From the NCBI RefSeq assembly GCF_013167455.1, contig NZ_CP038328.1: a stretch of 64,000 nucleotides of DNA; one strand, 5' to 3'. The notes under the pieces were generated by a model. That model searched no databases and was not told where the DNA came from. It saw only the letters and a program-made list of their open reading frames with translations. This document shows, piece after piece, positions 50,996-56,558 of the stretch (the first letter of the stretch is position 1; each line of letters opens with the position of its first letter). This DNA comes from Escherichia coli O157:H7 (GTDB lineage: Bacteria > Pseudomonadota > Gammaproteobacteria > Enterobacterales > Enterobacteriaceae). Made by a program: the position numbers and the translations under genes.

Positions 50996-51167
50996 TTTTT
51001 CAAGCGTCTCACTTCGTCGCAGTTGGGATTTTCGGTTTTTCTATGTGTGTGTTTCATAAGTATTTTTTTACCCCTCACTTTTGAGGATGTATACAGGTCG
51101 AAAAGTGAGGGAGAGCGGGCTAATTTTGGCCCTCTTTCTATCCCCCTCGCTTTTGCTCCTCACTTTT
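50978..51167. repeat. Putative satellite replication origin: at least six CTCACTTTT-type iterons in both orientations
   Basis: Copies at 50978, 50991, 51008 (variant), 51074, 51101 (inverted), 51146 (variant), 51159; directly 3' of rep. Confidence 0.55.
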
Positions 51168-52566
51168 ATAGCGGCGCTACATCATCCCCATCGATACGAA
51201 TAACCCCATCTTTTTCCAGCTTGTACAGCCAGCGCCGGAAGTTTTTCATTTCATACCCCAGCTTTTTCATGTCATCACGTAACAGCGGGATCGTGCACTT
51301 GTCGCCGTTCTGTGTGCGTGAACGGATGCACCCCCATAGCGCGGTATGGTTTTCCGTCTTGTTCCCTGCCTCCTCGATGCGCTCCAGTTCAACAGGAGGG
51401 CGCGGATCATCCACCACCACCAGCGACGTGATTAATTCACCGTCAGCGTCGGTAAAAAGCTCCACCACGCGTAAGTCATATGCGGCTTCTTTGAGTTCCT
51501 CCGCGTCCTTCATTTTGGTGCATGAGATAACCAGCGCTTCGCTTCCTGCGTCCTCCCTGCGTATCCGGTATTCAGCATCCAGCGAAGCACGAAATGCACT
51601 GGAACCGCGCGCGCCTTTCGTCTCATCCTTGCCGGAATGGTGAACCACCAGCACCGTGGCCCCTGTGCGTCGTTTCAGTTCGTCACAACCACGGATAAAC
51701 GCCCCCATATCACGGGAATCATTTTCATCATTCCCACCAAAGCAACGCGCCAGCGTATCCAGAATAATCATGCGTACAGGTTTACCCGTTTCCCGCTCCA
51801 CCTGACGGGCAGCGATAACCATTTCATCAACATCAAGCGGGGCAGCCGGAAAGATGGGGCGGTTTACCAGATACAGATTTTTCACCTGCTCATCGTGCAC
51901 AACCTCCCAGGCTTTTACACGACGCGGAACACCTATACCGCCTTCACCAACCACATAGAGAACCGCACCATGTGCAACCCTGCGGCCTCCCCACTGGCGA
52001 CCAGTGGCAACATGGCACGCCCACGATCCGGCAAGGAATGATTTATAGGACCCGCTAGCCCCGTATATGCTGCATAGCGATACCGCCGGAATAATCCCCT
52101 TAACCACGTAATCCAGTTGCGTGTCGTATCCGGTAGATCCAACGCTCATCGGTAGCGTGGTTTTTCGCTGGTGGTTTTTTTCTTCCGCCGGCTCTTTCCC
52201 GCGCACCCGTTCCAGGTATTCGCGCCAGTTCTCCCGCATATGGCTGTGCATCCCTTCGGGGTAATAATTCGCATCAGTTACACCCGCCGCCGCCAGCTTG
52301 TGCGCAATGGCATTAATATTTGATGGCCTGATGTGGCCTGCCTTGTACAGCCGGACACAATAGCGCCCCTCGTCGATGATTCTCAGTTCTGCCAGTTCAT
52401 CCAGTTGATCATCAGCCAGCACAACGGGAGGCACATTATCGCCAGCCAGTCGCCCGTCCTGTTCCTGCCACTGTTTCGCATGTGCCCAGGCATCACTACC
52501 CGCAAAAATAATGACTTCGGTCATCTTGTCGTAAGGCTGTTTTTTTAAGTTCGGTGCGCTTTTCAT
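51166..52566 (-). CDS. Replication protein, RecA-fold P-loop ATPase (RepA/AAA_25-like helicase)
   Basis: 466 aa; Walker A-like GASGSYKS and Walker B-like RMIILDTLA; upstream of iterons. Confidence 0.65.
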   Translation of the reverse strand: MKSAPNLKKQPYDKMTEVIIFAGSDAWAHAKQWQEQDGRLAGDNVPPVVLADDQLDELAELRIIDEGRYCVRLYKAGHIRPSNINAIAHKLAAAGVTDANYYPEGMHSHMRENWREYLERVRGKEPAEEKNHQRKTTLPMSVGSTGYDTQLDYVVKGIIPAVSLCSIYGASGSYKSFLAGSWACHVATGRQWGGRRVAHGAVLYVVGEGGIGVPRRVKAWEVVHDEQVKNLYLVNRPIFPAAPLDVDEMVIAARQVERETGKPVRMIILDTLARCFGGNDENDSRDMGAFIRGCDELKRRTGATVLVVHHSGKDETKGARGSSAFRASLDAEYRIRREDAGSEALVISCTKMKDAEELKEAAYDLRVVELFTDADGELITSLVVVDDPRPPVELERIEEAGNKTENHTALWGCIRSRTQNGDKCTIPLLRDDMKKLGYEMKNFRRWLYKLEKDGVIRIDGDDVAPL

Positions 52567-53558: not shown

Positions 53559-53760
53559 AAAGCATCCCCTGAATATTCGTGTTAATCATTCCGGCACGTT
53601 TTGTGATTTCCTGTAATGATTCCCTTGTGGCGACAATTGCTTCATCTGGTAAGTGGTAATTACACACCACGCGACCTTTATCCACATTGACCAGTAGCTG
53701 CCCTGTGAATTTCTCACGAAACTGAATGCGGTTAAGGTCAGTAAGTGACAGATTAATCAT
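53548..53760 (-). CDS. Hypothetical protein
   Basis: 70 aa from MINLSLTDL...; RBS AGGAGG; ATGATTAA overlap with the upstream gene. Confidence 0.35.
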   Translation of the reverse strand: MINLSLTDLNRIQFREKFTGQLLVNVDKGRVVCNYHLPDEAIVATRESLQEITKRAGMINTNIQGMLYAQ

Positions 53761-53950
53761 GGCGCACCTCCTGACGAATACGGGCGGCAAATACAGCAAC
53801 ACAACCGGACGGGCAACGGTTACGCGCTTCGCGTTCCGTCCAGGCGGTTACGTGGATGATTTGAGATTCTCCGGCACTCAGTGCCAGAAAACGCCACACA
53901 AAGGCCGTTTGTGTGTGTACAAGGTGTGGTATATGATTTACGGCAACCAT
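53753..53950 (-). CDS. Hypothetical protein, first gene of the satellite leftward operon
   Basis: 65 aa from MVAVNHIPHL...; RBS GGAG 5 nt upstream. Confidence 0.35.
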   Translation of the reverse strand: MVAVNHIPHLVHTQTAFVWRFLALSAGESQIIHVTAWTEREARNRCPSGCVAVFAARIRQEVRHD

Positions 53951-54040
53951 AACGGCTCCTAGTTTACGTTGTTGGTTAGACGCCCCGTATGTGTTCCCAG
54001 CACTGCGGGGCGTTGATTTTTGTGTAATGGCAAGTACAAT

Positions 54041-54080
54041 GGTAATTACCATGTAGGTATAGCAATAAAGGGTAATTACC
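54041..54080. promoter_or_regulatory. Two perfect 10-bp palindromes GGTAATTACC, 30 bp apart, in the divergent control region
   Basis: Copies at 54041..54050 and 54071..54080, each followed by ATGT; the second abuts the RHH start codon. Confidence 0.5.
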
Positions 54081-54254
54081 ATGTCAACACCATTAGAAAA
54101 ACGTTCGCCTCCATACCAAATGCGATTACCGGAAGACTTCAGAGCGCAGCTAGAAGAAGCTGCTAAGGCCGATGGCGACACATCTTTAGCCACTTGGATT
54201 AAACGCGTTCTCCGCAAAGAATTACAGCAACGCGGCATAGAACCCAAAGGATAA
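54081..54254 (+). CDS. Ribbon-helix-helix (Arc/MetJ-like) DNA-binding protein
   Basis: 57 aa by manual translation (MSTPLEKRSPPYQMRLPEDFRAQLEEAAKADGDTSLATWIKRVLRKELQQRGIEPKG); below the ORF-track cutoff. Confidence 0.5.
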   Translation: MSTPLEKRSPPYQMRLPEDFRAQLEEAAKADGDTSLATWIKRVLRKELQQRGIEPKG

Positions 54255-54296
54255 AAACTATCAGCGCCGTGGTGTGAGGTATTACGGCGCATTGCT

Positions 54297-54485
54297 ATGC
54301 AGGACAACACAATGACCGATAAAGAATTGACCAAAACATTATCACCGGCACGGAAAAGACGGCGCAGAAAGATAGAGCATGAATCAGAAAGATTCGCGCC
54401 ATGTGCTTTTGCCCTTGAGCAATTCCTTAAAGAGTACAGGGAAACGCGCCCATTGCAGGTATGGCAACGAACTGAACCAGACTGA
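54297..54485 (+). CDS. Hypothetical small basic protein
   Basis: 62 aa with KRRRRK; downstream of the RHH gene, before the + strand terminator. Confidence 0.3.
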   Translation: MQDNTMTDKELTKTLSPARKRRRRKIEHESERFAPCAFALEQFLKEYRETRPLQVWQRTEPD

Positions 54486-54578
54486 TAGCATTGCCCACCA
54501 GCCTGATAGCGGCTATCATCCCCGTGCTTATGTTTGGGATCATATACACATAAGGCGCAGCGGGTTATCTGTTCAGAA

Positions 54579-54608
54579 AGGCGGCTCCATTTCGGGGCCG
54601 CTTTTTTT
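54579..54608 (+). terminator. Intrinsic terminator closing the RHH transcription unit
   Basis: GCGGCTCC-ATTTC-GGGGCCGC followed by T7. Confidence 0.5.
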
Positions 54609-54754
54609 ATGCCTGAAAAACCCCAATTTTGTGGTTTTCCAGTCTCACCAGGGCGAACGAATCCCCGCCCACGTTCTGGCGTATATTCAATCTTCATGGT
54701 TATAGCTCTGTGTTCAGATGATTGATGTGTGGCGGCTGTGTGCCGCCAGCGTGA

Positions 54755-54943
54755 TTAATGAACTGCCTTGCAGCTATCCTTCCAGGCCAGAACCTCGGAT
54801 AAAGACCAGCCAACGGAACGACCGCCAAGTTTACGACGTGATGGGAATTGTCCGGCCTTTTCCAGGCGGTAGCGACACGTACGGCTAAGGCCGGTTAGTT
54901 TTTCGCATTCTTTTTCACGTATAAACCGATCAGTGCTTAACAC
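54755..54943 (-). CDS. alpA: AlpA-family transcriptional regulator (excisionase-like)
   Basis: 62 aa; pattern ...LTGLSRTCRYRLEKAGQFP...GGRSVGWSLSEVLAW typical of AlpA. Confidence 0.75.
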   Translation of the reverse strand: MLSTDRFIREKECEKLTGLSRTCRYRLEKAGQFPSRRKLGGRSVGWSLSEVLAWKDSCKAVH

Positions 54944-55307: not shown

Positions 55308-56558
55308 TTATTTTCTTCTGGCTACTGGTAGCGTGGTTACGTTTTCATGTGTTCCCGCCAGTATCCCTAACCGCTCCGTCCACATATCCAGCGCATTGCG
55401 TTTCGCATCCAGATAACGGGAATGATTATAAACTCGCTGCATTCCTGGCATCTGGTGGCCTGTAAGCTGCTCCACGACATGCGGATCAACGCCTAAATCG
55501 TTCAGCATGGTTGTAAAGGTGCGCCGGATGTCATGCAGTGACCAGTGAGGGTGATTAAGCCTCCTGTGCGCTAATCTTCCATACTGCGATACGCTGGCCT
55601 CCTGTTTCACTTCCCCCAGCAATAAGCCCGTGTGCCTGTTCTGCTCCACCAGCTGCGTGATGAACGGCAGTATTGCTTCCGGTATAGGCCGGAATATGGC
55701 TACCTTCGTTTTGCTGTGCTCCTTCGGAACGGTCCAGAGCATTTCGGTAAAATCCCACTCGCTGATCTCCGATAACCTCAGTTCTACCGTCCGGCATCCG
55801 AACACAATCAGGAGGCGGATTAACGCGATGTAGTAGGGGGAGAATATTTTTTTGTCCAGTGCCTGCAATAATTCGCCCAGTTCTTTGGTGCTTAAGACAC
55901 GCTCGCTTATATCCGGTTTTTTCCCAACGTCCGCCACACTCATATCATCAAGAACGTTGCTGATTGCATAGCGCCGCCTCCGGCAGAACTTAAGCGCCTG
56001 TTTGCACGTCTGTAGCAAGAATCCGGCAGTAACAGGCGTTCGCTTTGCCACCTGGTCAAAACAGGCCAGCCAGTGCCGTAGCTCGCATTTATCCAGCGGC
56101 ATAGCACCAATGTGCTGTATTACGTGATTATTAAGGCGCTTTTTCAGGGCGGCATAATCCACGCGGTTTTCCTTTGCGTACGACTCAAGCCAGTAGGTGA
56201 GCGCATCGCCAACCGTTACCGGCTTTAACGCTTCCTGTACGGTGTAATTAAGCTCATGACGTGGATTTTTCCCCTCTGCCAGCCATGCGCGACACTGGGC
56301 GGCTTTTTCCCTGGCTGATTTCAGGCTCAGATCAGGATAATTTCCCAGCTTAATGCGTTCCGGTGGTGCCCCCCTTCCCGTTCCGGCCCTGTAAGTGAAA
56401 TACCAGGTTAAAAGGCCACTGGTTGAATGCCTGACGCTCAGGTTTCCACCGTCATTAAGAAAGGCTGTTTTTTGGGCGGGTGTGCCGTTGATTTTCCTCA
56501 GCTGTGTATCGCTCAGTTTGTTAAGTGCTCTGCTCATAATTTTGATTCCGGTCATCAC
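55308..56558 (-). CDS. int: Tyrosine integrase (P4/satellite-type)
   Basis: 416 aa; C-terminal catalytic residues; adjacent to the right att repeat. Confidence 0.9.
   Translation of the reverse strand: MMTGIKIMSRALNKLSDTQLRKINGTPAQKTAFLNDGGNLSVRHSTSGLLTWYFTYRAGTGRGAPPERIKLGNYPDLSLKSAREKAAQCRAWLAEGKNPRHELNYTVQEALKPVTVGDALTYWLESYAKENRVDYAALKKRLNNHVIQHIGAMPLDKCELRHWLACFDQVAKRTPVTAGFLLQTCKQALKFCRRRRYAISNVLDDMSVADVGKKPDISERVLSTKELGELLQALDKKIFSPYYIALIRLLIVFGCRTVELRLSEISEWDFTEMLWTVPKEHSKTKVAIFRPIPEAILPFITQLVEQNRHTGLLLGEVKQEASVSQYGRLAHRRLNHPHWSLHDIRRTFTTMLNDLGVDPHVVEQLTGHQMPGMQRVYNHSRYLDAKRNALDMWTERLGILAGTHENVTTLPVARRK

What the first reader, a model, noticed from the sequence alone, without database searches (positions are those of the whole stretch)
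54041..54254. RHH regulator with twin perfect palindromic operators in the satellite control region
GGTAATTACC is a perfect 10-bp palindrome present twice, 30 bp centre to centre, each followed by ATGT; the second abuts the start of a 57-aa Arc/MetJ-type RHH gene, and the leftward structural operon starts ~130 bp away on the other strand. This looks like an autoregulated repressor/operator pair that could be the satellite master switch.
Basis: partly seen in the sequence, partly recalled or inferred. Interest (0 to 1): 0.5.

Follow-up and report, generated by a model that had tools for sequence, protein, structure and literature searches.

The report
Unannotated Arc-like repressor in a phage satellite
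A small, unannotated DNA-binding protein gene in an E. coli O157:H7 phage satellite sits next to two matching palindromes that overlap two facing promoters, so it is very probably a self-regulating repressor of the satellite's early genes, a candidate for the repressor that has not yet been found in Gram-negative satellites.

Summary
GGTAATTACC occurs exactly twice (54041, 54071), each followed by ATGT. It is the only twin 10-bp palindrome in the window (11 of 5000 shuffles). The window carries a capsid-forming PICI satellite of E. coli O157:H7, matching the published description of EcCIEDL933.

The 57-aa ORF (54081-54254, +) is a real ribbon-helix-helix gene (pN/pS 0.19; homologues in many Gammaproteobacteria). 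RefSeq does not annotate it.

In 72 related loci the two operators keep their positions, and their sequence changes with the β-strand residues that read DNA: QYQMRL with GGTnnnnACC, QYQ(I/L)RL with TGTAATTACA, QFPMRL with GGTATATACC.

O1 abuts the -10 of the RHH promoter. O2 lies in the spacer of a conserved leftward promoter whose -35 (TTGACA) is the complement of RHH codons 1-3.

The best reading is an autoregulated Arc-like repressor that also shuts an internal early promoter for the icd/replication operon. "Master switch" is only partly supported, because published genetics show that AlpA is the essential activator.

The gene lies antisense inside a P4 eta-like ORF, at the place where P4 keeps its immunity RNA. 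No binding or expression experiment exists.

The parts
54081..54254 (+). 57-aa ribbon-helix-helix (Arc-like) repressor gene, not annotated in RefSeq
   Evidence: ORF. PHROG 228 'Arc-like repressor' E=1.5e-6; Pfam Arc only E=0.041. 93 homologue clusters, mostly 57 aa. pN/pS 0.19 in this frame; codon-position variability 0.14/0.07/0.34. AF2 model has an extended N-terminus plus two helices, and all 45 Foldseek PDB hits are RHH proteins.
54039..54052 (.). Operator O1: perfect 14-bp palindrome ATGGTAATTACCAT (core 54041-54050). It abuts the -10 of the RHH promoter and covers both predicted start sites.
   Evidence: Position conserved and sequence co-varies with the β-strand.
54069..54082 (.). Operator O2: AGGGTAATTACCAT (core 54071-54080). 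It covers the RHH ribosome-binding region and start codon, and lies in the spacer of the leftward promoter.
54013..54040 (+). Predicted RHH promoter P_R: -35 TTGATT (54013-54018), 16-nt spacer, -10 TACAAT (54035-54040); predicted start near 54047, inside O1
   Evidence: Consensus scan. The same arrangement, with the -10 ending 41-42 nt before the ATG, is found in most related loci. Start site is inferred.
54059..54087 (-). Predicted leftward promoter P_L: -35 TTGACA (54087-54082, complement of RHH codons 1-3), 17-nt spacer containing O2, -10 TGCTAT (54064-54059, weak in this allele); predicted start near 54052
   Evidence: PWM scan: TTGACA, 17-18 nt, TATnAT-like hexamer at the same place in about 40 distinct loci. 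41 of 46 distinct loci begin ATGTCAA, although TCA is only 27% of other Ser codons. Function is inferred.
53980..54013 (.). Conserved hairpin followed on the + strand by a T-run that overlaps the -35 of P_R. It lies in the leader of the leftward transcript.
   Evidence: Inverted repeat I9. 10 of 13 pairs show compensatory changes across 30 loci. Role unknown.
54297..54485 (+). orf62, probable second gene of the rightward unit
   Evidence: PHROG 21027 E=3e-16. Homologues only in E. coli/Shigella, but they sit behind at least four different regulator alleles. pN/pS 0.41 (small sample).
54580..54610 (+). Intrinsic terminator ending the rightward unit (GGCGGCTCC-loop-GGGGCCGC-TTTTTTT)
   Evidence: z-score -3.55.
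53753..54697 (-). 314-codon P4 eta-like ORF, open from the alpA stop codon (54754), running antisense through orf62, the RHH gene and the operators, and ending in the Icd-like domain
   Evidence: NF033153 phage_ICD_like at residues 266-309 here and 161-208 in P4 Eta. The antisense frame is open in 30 of 45 RHH genes against 12.6 expected.
53753..53950 (-). Icd-like gene (kil-like nested short form), first gene downstream of P_L
   Evidence: RefSeq annotation. NF033153 E=5e-18.
54755..54943 (-). alpA, the published activator of the satellite
   Evidence: literature.

Best explanation
The 57-aa protein is an Arc-like ribbon-helix-helix repressor. It binds the two palindromes O1 and O2, whose centres are 30 bp apart (about three helical turns, so on the same face of the DNA). 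O1 abuts the -10 of the repressor's own rightward promoter and covers its predicted start site. O2 covers its ribosome-binding site and start codon. The gene should therefore limit its own expression. The same two sites also bracket the -10 of a leftward sigma-70 promoter: O2 fills its spacer and O1 covers its start. That promoter faces the RHH promoter and leads into the icd-like/replication/packaging gene array. Bound repressor should keep this internal early promoter shut in the resting satellite. Induction would come from upstream: AlpA-dependent transcription reads leftward through a long eta-like ORF and hence through the repressor gene in antisense. Shown here: the gene is real and under selection; it has the RHH fold; the operators are conserved and change with the DNA-reading residues; both promoters match consensus at conserved positions. 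Inferred: actual binding, both start sites, repression of the leftward promoter, and the link to AlpA.
For: Gene reality: 93 homologue clusters across Enterobacterales, Pasteurellales, Aeromonas, Oceanimonas and Gilliamella; pN/pS 0.19. Fold. Operators: the pair is unique in the window and lies at the same two positions in about 40 distinct loci. Specificity classes match the β-strand: QYQMRL with GGTnnnnACC, QYQ(I/L)RL with TGTAATTACA, QFPMRL with GGTATATACC, PFQFRL with GTGTCAnTACAC. The switches occurred between close relatives at least twice: L028 and L029 are 88% identical in the helices, L027 and L045 are 90%. Promoters; conserved P_R and P_L geometry; ATGTCAA in 41 of 46 loci. Module behaviour: other E. 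coli PICIs carry different RHH-like regulators at the same place, each with its own palindromes. Synteny with alpA, int, Bro-N, icd-like and primase genes. Literature: whether Gram-negative PICIs have a global repressor is 'unclear' (PMC6092414).
Against: There is no binding, footprint, start-site or expression data. Pfam Arc is below threshold (E=0.041), and no single Foldseek E-value is significant. In this particular allele the leftward -10 is poor (TGCTAT, PWM score 8.6 against 11-15 elsewhere), so P_L may be weak here. AlpA alone is necessary, and its overexpression is used to drive the cycle, so the RHH cannot be an absolute block. The covariation is partly confounded by shared ancestry. 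Two Pantoea loci (L047, L049) show no obvious operators at the expected place.
Confidence: 0.68

Rival explanations
1. The RHH only regulates its own small rightward unit (RHH plus orf62). The leftward promoter match is not functional, and the leftward genes are transcribed solely from the alpA promoter.
For: AlpA is necessary for induction, and overexpression is used to drive the cycle. The window's leftward -10 is weak. The RHH and orf62 form a unit with its own terminator.
Against: TTGACA, a 17-nt spacer and a TATnAT-like hexamer recur at the same position in about 40 distinct loci. The Ser2 codon is fixed as TCA. This is hard to explain without a function on the other strand. orf62 is absent outside E. 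coli/Shigella, so it cannot be the conserved target.
Confidence: 0.17
2. The RHH is the antitoxin of a type II toxin-antitoxin pair, with orf62 or the Icd-like protein as toxin. The palindromes would be the usual autoregulation site of such a pair.
For: Many RHH antitoxins autoregulate through promoter palindromes. Some sources label homologues 'HicB family antitoxin'. Foldseek hits include VapB, MazE9 and AtaR.
Against: There is no co-conserved downstream partner. orf62 has no homologue in any of the 72 loci. In Xenorhabdus, alpA follows about 170 bp after the RHH with no plausible gene between them. The protein is only the 57-aa DNA-binding domain and has no toxin-binding tail. The 'HicB' labels reflect the shared RHH domain only.
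Confidence: 0.04
3. The + strand ORF is spurious. The real gene is the long minus-strand 'Icd-like' ORF that RefSeq partly annotates, and the palindromes are sites for another factor such as AlpA, integrase or IHF.
For: RefSeq annotates only the minus strand here. The minus frame is open for 314 codons.
Against: The + frame has the lowest pN/pS of all six frames (0.19 against 0.40 for the best antisense frame). The protein keeps its length and sequence across several orders of Gammaproteobacteria. The N-terminal 250 residues of the minus ORF match no family. The operator sequence follows RHH β-strand residues, not the alpA or int type.
Confidence: 0.03
4. The RHH is a ParG/omega-like centromere-binding or copy-control protein for the excised replicon, not a switch for the operon.
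For: Weak PHROG matches to RHH N-termini of partition proteins (E=0.004-0.008). It sits near the replication genes.
Against: No ParA-type ATPase is nearby. There are only two sites, placed exactly on promoter elements, rather than an array of repeats.
Confidence: 0.03

Closest known systems
Phage P22 immI Arc (and Mnt) repressors
   Same: A small (about 53-57 aa) RHH protein. It has a symmetric operator placed on closely spaced, facing promoters, so one protein controls its own transcription and the opposing transcription. Arc is among the best fold and profile matches. The P22 promoter layout is recalled from my own knowledge and was not checked here.
   Different: Sequence similarity is marginal (Pfam E=0.041). 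There are two separate palindromes 30 bp apart rather than one 21-bp operator. The host is a satellite, not a phage. There is no antirepressor gene downstream.
Satellite phage P4 immunity region (PLE promoter, CI/C4 RNA and seqA/isrK inside the eta ORF, nested kil)
   Same: The gene order matches: alpA/vis homologue, then a long ORF ending in an Icd-like domain (NF033153 in both), with an internal leftward promoter and a control element inside that ORF (PMC10111431).
   Different: P4's control element is an RNA on the same strand (C4 and isrK found in P4). Neither RNA is found here or in 7 related loci. Here the same place holds a protein repressor gene on the opposite strand with DNA operators.
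Stl/Rpr master repressors of Gram-positive PICIs (SaPIs)
   Same: A repressor gene transcribed divergently from the replication/packaging operon of a phage-inducible island (PMC6092414).
   Different: No family relationship to Stl was found or tested. Relief by a helper-phage protein is unknown here. This island needs the activator AlpA, which SaPIs lack.
CopG-type plasmid RHH autorepressors
   Same: A 45-57 aa RHH protein binding a pseudo-palindrome that overlaps the promoter of a replication operon. CopG is among the fold hits.
   Different: CopG is the first gene of the operon it represses. Here the repressor faces the operon.
YlcI/YnfO family (NF041551; DUF3950) of E. coli cryptic prophages
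   Same: Distant homologues (NF041551 E=0.0014; 32% identity over 50 residues). They occupy exactly the same slot in other E. coli PICIs, each with its own palindromes.
   Different: They are longer (59-101 aa) with a C-terminal extension, and they have different operators. I found no functional study of them.

Membership tests
Ribbon-helix-helix (Arc/MetJ) superfamily | Significant sequence-profile match to an RHH family | tested here: inconclusive
   PHROG 228 'Arc-like repressor' E=1.5e-6, but Pfam Arc PF03869 only E=0.041, below threshold. NF041551 scored 18.7 bits against a cut-off of 30. A PDB sequence search gave only spurious helical repeats.
Ribbon-helix-helix (Arc/MetJ) superfamily | N-terminal strand followed by two helices of about 14 residues | tested here: met
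   AF2 model: extended residues up to 17, helices 18-31 and 36-50, mean pLDDT 76. All 45 Foldseek PDB hits are RHH proteins (Arc, AmrZ, NikR, CopG, antitoxins), at rmsd 0.8-1.4 Å over 36-38 residues, though E-values are all above 1.
Ribbon-helix-helix (Arc/MetJ) superfamily | Dimer whose paired β-strands read bases of a symmetric operator | tested here: inconclusive
   Indirect only. Operator sequence changes in step with β-strand residues, at least twice independently. Dimerisation and binding cannot be tested with these tools.
Type II toxin-antitoxin, RHH antitoxin | Co-conserved toxin gene in the same operon | tested here: not met
   orf62 is absent from all 72 related loci, and no conserved downstream + strand ORF exists.
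P4-type immunity region | alpA/vis homologue followed by a long ORF ending in the Icd/Kil-like domain | tested here: met
   The minus frame is open from the alpA stop to 53753. NF033153 is at the C-terminus here and in P4 Eta.
P4-type immunity region | CI (C4) RNA and seqA (isrK) elements inside that ORF | tested here: not met
   Rfam finds both in P4. It finds none in the window at E<=1 or in 7 related loci at gathering score.
P4-type immunity region | Promoter internal to the long ORF that drives the early operon | tested here: inconclusive
   A conserved consensus match, P_L. No transcript data.
Capsid-forming PICI (cf-PICI) | int, alpA, replication module, and its own capsid and small terminase genes, with no tail or lysis genes | tested here: met
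   RefSeq annotation of the identical region in O157:H7 strain TR01 shows int, alpA (annotated as an HTH regulator), RepA helicase, SSB, PerC, major capsid, head decoration and terS between phoQ and roxA. That this is EcCIEDL933 itself is inferred from the serotype and gene content as described in 10.1101/2022.09.08.507074.
SaPI Stl-type master repressor | Repression lifted by binding of a helper-phage protein | not testable with these tools
   No data.

The most novel reading that the evidence does not exclude
This RHH and its allelic replacements are the long-sought repressor (immunity) module of Gram-negative PICIs. It would be a protein repressor, encoded antisense inside a translated P4 eta-like ORF, that has taken the place and role of P4's CI immunity RNA. 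It would shut the internal early promoter after establishment. It would itself be silenced when AlpA-driven transcription and translation run through it from the opposite direction. The many alleles with private operators would define immunity groups among co-resident satellites.
Probability: 0.35. Interest if true: 0.7.

Novelty: new member of a known kind. Interest (0 to 1): 0.5.

Why it matters
Gram-positive PICIs are held silent by a master repressor. [quoted passage not shown]

This gene is invisible in RefSeq annotation of 327 complete E. coli genomes. Its family is widespread in satellites of Enterobacterales and Pasteurellaceae.

It gives a concrete candidate that is cheap to test: a 57-aa protein, a 60-bp DNA target, and predicted specificity-switching residues. 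The candidate function is control of the early promoter of these islands, including the cf-PICI now used as a model.

It also suggests that alternative regulator cassettes define immunity types among satellites. Finally, it offers a natural set of RHH/operator specificity pairs for studying recognition.

Tried and rejected
1. Rfam scan for C4/CI, isrK or other RNAs in the control region: nothing at E<=1 apart from two terminator-like chance matches. No such RNAs in 7 related loci either.

2. PDB sequence search with the family profile: only designed helical repeat proteins, which is uninformative.

3. Toxin-antitoxin reading: rejected for lack of a conserved partner.

4. Extra operators elsewhere: ATGGTnnnnACCAT occurs only at O1 and O2 within the island. 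The hits at 35310 and 44568 lie outside it and are at chance level. The one-mismatch copy GGTAATTACA at 53655 is also at chance level.

5. Direct BLASTP of the 314-aa ORF against P4 Eta was not significant. The relationship rests on the shared C-terminal NF033153 domain and on gene order.

6. Two shuffle scripts timed out. A mononucleotide shuffle was used instead, so the chance estimate does not preserve dinucleotides.

7. My first hand count put the leftward -35 three bases off, giving a 20-nt spacer. The PWM scan corrected this to a 17-nt spacer.

8. Literature searches for RHH regulators in PICIs and for YlcI/YnfO function found nothing relevant.

Full report
**What the window is**

The region between phoQ and roxA is 100% identical to E. 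coli O157:H7 chromosomes. All its annotated genes are on the minus strand: integrase (55308-56558), alpA (54755-54943), an Icd-like gene (53753-53950), small ORFs, a RepA-family helicase (51166-52566), SSB, PerC, major capsid, head decoration protein and small terminase. This is the gene content of a capsid-forming PICI. By serotype and description I infer it is EcCIEDL933 (10.1101/2022.09.08.507074).

**The observation**

GGTAATTACC is at 54041 and 54071, each followed by ATGT, with the second ending one base before an ATG.

- The first copy is a perfect 14-bp palindrome, ATGGTAATTACCAT. The second matches 13 of those 14 positions.
- It is the only twin identical 10-bp palindrome in the window. 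Such a pair arose in 11 of 5000 shuffles.

**Is the 57-codon ORF a gene?**

RefSeq does not call it in any of the 327 complete E. coli genomes that carry this allele. It annotates a minus-strand 'Icd-like' pseudogene over the same bases instead. The evidence that the ORF is real is strong.

- There are 93 clusters of homologues, nearly all 56-58 aa, in Enterobacterales, Pasteurellales, Aeromonas, Oceanimonas and Gilliamella.
- Among 24 distinct 57-codon genes, pN/pS is 0.19 in this frame. The other five frames give 0.40 to 2.6. Variability by codon position is 0.14, 0.07 and 0.34.
- PHROG 228 'Arc-like repressor' matches at E=1.5e-6. Pfam Arc reaches only E=0.041.
- The AlphaFold model has an extended N-terminus and two helices (18-31, 36-50). 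All 45 Foldseek PDB hits are ribbon-helix-helix proteins, though none has a significant E-value on its own.

**Operators in related loci**

A scan of one genome per species returned 72 loci. In about 40 distinct loci there are again two palindromes. One ends at or within a base of the ATG, and the other lies 30-35 bp upstream. Their sequence follows the residues of the predicted β-strand, the part of an RHH protein that reads bases:

| β-strand | Operator |
|---|---|
| xQYQMRL | GGTnnnnACC (GGTAATTACC, GGTCGTTACC, and others) |
| xQYQ(I/L)RL | TGTAATTACA |
| PQFPMRL | GGTATATACC |
| PPFQFRL | GTGTCAnTACAC |

These switches are not one ancient split.

- L028 (Pasteurella testudinis; I-type strand, TGTAATTACA) is 88% identical in the helices to L029 (Testudinibacter; M-type strand, GGTAATTACC).
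- L027 (QFPMRL; GGTATATACC) is 90% identical to L045 (I-type strand; TGTAATTACA).

In L014 the second site is the reverse complement of the first, as expected for a symmetric site. This is the strongest evidence available without an experiment that the protein binds these sites. Two Pantoea loci lack obvious sites at the expected place.

**Promoters**

On the + strand there is TTGATT (54013-54018), a 16-nt spacer, and TACAAT (54035-54040). The -10 runs straight into O1, and the predicted start (about 54047) is inside O1. The same layout recurs in most loci.

A position-weight scan also found a leftward promoter that I had first miscounted by hand.

- Its -35 TTGACA is the complement of RHH codons 1-3 (54087-54082).
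- Its 17-nt spacer contains O2.
- Its -10 lies between O2 and O1 (54064-54059).
- In other loci the -10 reads TATTAT, TATGAT, CATAAT or TATAGT, with scores of 11-15. In this window it is the weak TGCTAT (score 8.6). A related E. coli allele has TACTAT.
- 41 of 46 distinct loci begin ATGTCAA, although TCA makes up only 27% of other serine codons in the same genes. This points to selection on the DNA sequence itself.

The two predicted starts face each other about 5 nt apart, inside O1. A repressor on O1 and O2 would therefore block both promoters. The start sites and the repression are inferences.

**The rightward unit**

After the RHH gene comes orf62 (54297-54485), followed by a strong terminator (54580-54610). 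orf62 has homologues only in E. coli and Shigella and in none of the 72 loci. That rules out a conserved toxin partner.

In E. coli PICIs with other integrases, alpA types and primases, orf62 follows at least four other regulator alleles, each with private palindromes:

- a 59-aa RHH with GTGTCATCACAC;
- YlcI/YnfO-like proteins of 59 and 101 aa, with GGTGTATTTCACC/GGTGAAATACAC and GTGTGTTTCATG/CATGAAACACAC respectively;
- a 65-aa DUF3950 protein with TGTGCGCACA.

The 101-aa allele sits at the same roxA site, next to the identical alpA protein (same RefSeq accession), and is a distant homologue of the RHH. The regulator and its sites therefore move as a cassette, as immunity regions do.

**The other strand**

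The minus frame is open from the alpA stop codon (54754) to 53753. A 314-codon ORF (ATG at 54697) runs antisense through orf62, the RHH gene, the operators and a hairpin, and ends in the Icd-like domain.

- P4 has the same layout: vis (the alpA homologue), then eta (8812-8168), whose C-terminus matches the same NCBIfam domain.
- According to PMC10111431, P4 eta contains an internal constitutive promoter and the CI immunity RNA. Kil is its nested short form, and translation of eta from the upstream late promoter prevents termination.
- Rfam finds C4 and isrK inside P4 eta. It finds nothing in this window or in 7 related loci.
- In 20 loci the antisense frame is open for 180-529 codons, always in the phase where wobble positions coincide, and in most of them it ends in an Icd-like C-terminus.
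- 30 of 45 distinct RHH genes carry no antisense stop in that phase, against 12.6 expected from synonymous resampling (shared ancestry inflates this figure).
- The first 250 residues of the long ORF match no protein family.

My reading is that the frame is kept open so that it can be translated, not because its protein product matters. This remains unproven.

**A conserved hairpin**

The hairpin at 53980-54013 lies between the Icd-like start codon and the RHH promoter. 10 of its 13 pairs show compensatory changes across 30 loci. On the + strand it looks like a terminator whose T-run overlaps the -35 of the RHH promoter. On the minus strand it lies in the leader of the leftward transcript. I could not assign it a role.

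**How it most likely works**

The RHH binds O1 and O2, holds its own level steady, and shuts the internal leftward promoter, which is the analogue of P4's PLE. Published work shows that an alpA mutation abolishes induction, and alpA overexpression is used to drive EcCIEDL933 reproduction. The RHH is therefore not the master switch.

The following is plausible but inferred. AlpA-dependent transcription from upstream bypasses the repressed promoter and, running antisense through the RHH gene, lowers repressor production. The repressed promoter may serve mainly on entry into a new cell, or as an immunity function.

**Novelty**

The mechanism is a familiar kind: an Arc/CopG-type autorepressor sitting on facing promoters. 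New here are the gene itself, which is unannotated and undescribed in the literature I could search, its place in Gram-negative PICIs, and its antisense position inside an eta-like ORF.

Noticed in passing
window 53753-54754 (minus strand): A 314-codon ORF, in frame with alpA and starting right after its stop codon, runs antisense through two + strand genes and the whole control region and ends in the Icd-like domain, as P4 eta/kil does. Long antisense open frames in the same phase recur in 20 related loci.
   Followed up: partly
window 53980-54013 (with T-run to about 54025): A hairpin conserved across several orders of Gammaproteobacteria, with compensatory changes in 10 of 13 pairs and a conserved loop (GTGTTCC.AGCAC). 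It is terminator-like on the + strand and sits in the leader of the leftward transcript on the other. No Rfam family matches. Role unknown.
   Followed up: partly
window 54081-54254; 327 complete E. coli genomes: RefSeq never annotates the RHH gene. It places an 'Icd-like' pseudogene on the opposite strand over the same bases.
   Followed up: yes
L074 2740-3166; L077 1660-2072; L079 2170-2443; L081 2130-2443; L082 2110-2443: Other E. coli PICIs carry different small RHH-like regulators (YlcI/YnfO, DUF3950, a 59-aa RHH) in the same slot, each with its own palindromes (for example TGTGCGCACA, GTGTGTTTCATG/CATGAAACACAC). This looks like a set of immunity-type cassettes.
   Followed up: partly
window 54297-54485: orf62, with a basic RKRRRRK stretch and an ERFAPCAFALE motif, is kept behind all these regulator alleles in E. 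coli and Shigella but is absent elsewhere. Function unknown.
   Followed up: partly
window 54580-54610: A strong + strand intrinsic terminator lies inside the eta-like ORF, 145 nt downstream of alpA on the other strand. It has an A-rich 5' flank, so it may also act weakly on leftward transcripts. This could matter if PICI AlpA is an antiterminator like Pseudomonas AlpA (PMC7969949).
   Followed up: no
window 54059-54064 versus L075 3159-3164: The leftward -10 reads TGCTAT in this O157:H7 island but TACTAT in a related E. coli island. This is a single-base difference at the critical second position. The operators are identical in the two.
   Followed up: no
window 53895-53915 (minus strand): A terminator-like hairpin (CACACAAA-CGGCC-TTTGTGTG followed by GCGTTTTCTG) lies 35 nt inside the Icd-like gene. 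The T-run codes for a conserved WRFLA motif, and the hairpin is not conserved in other loci.
   Followed up: partly
L014 6387-8531: In Serratia sp. PL17 the RHH module lies next to a tape-measure gene on the opposite strand. This may be a satellite embedded in a prophage late region, as described in PMC10111431.
   Followed up: no
L030 9745-9814; L067 9718-9785: The Rfam int-alpA RNA motif (RF02996) is present in two related loci. It was not detected between int and alpA in the window, even at E<=1.
   Followed up: no
window 2570-2768 (minus strand): Rfam IS009 RNA match (229 bits). It is unrelated to the satellite.
   Followed up: no
L031-L035 (Photorhabdus), about 4770 and 6001: Two RHH homologues about 1.2 kb apart in the same locus. 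The copy at 6001 appears to start at a non-ATG codon (TTG) next to GGTATATACC-type palindromes.
   Followed up: no
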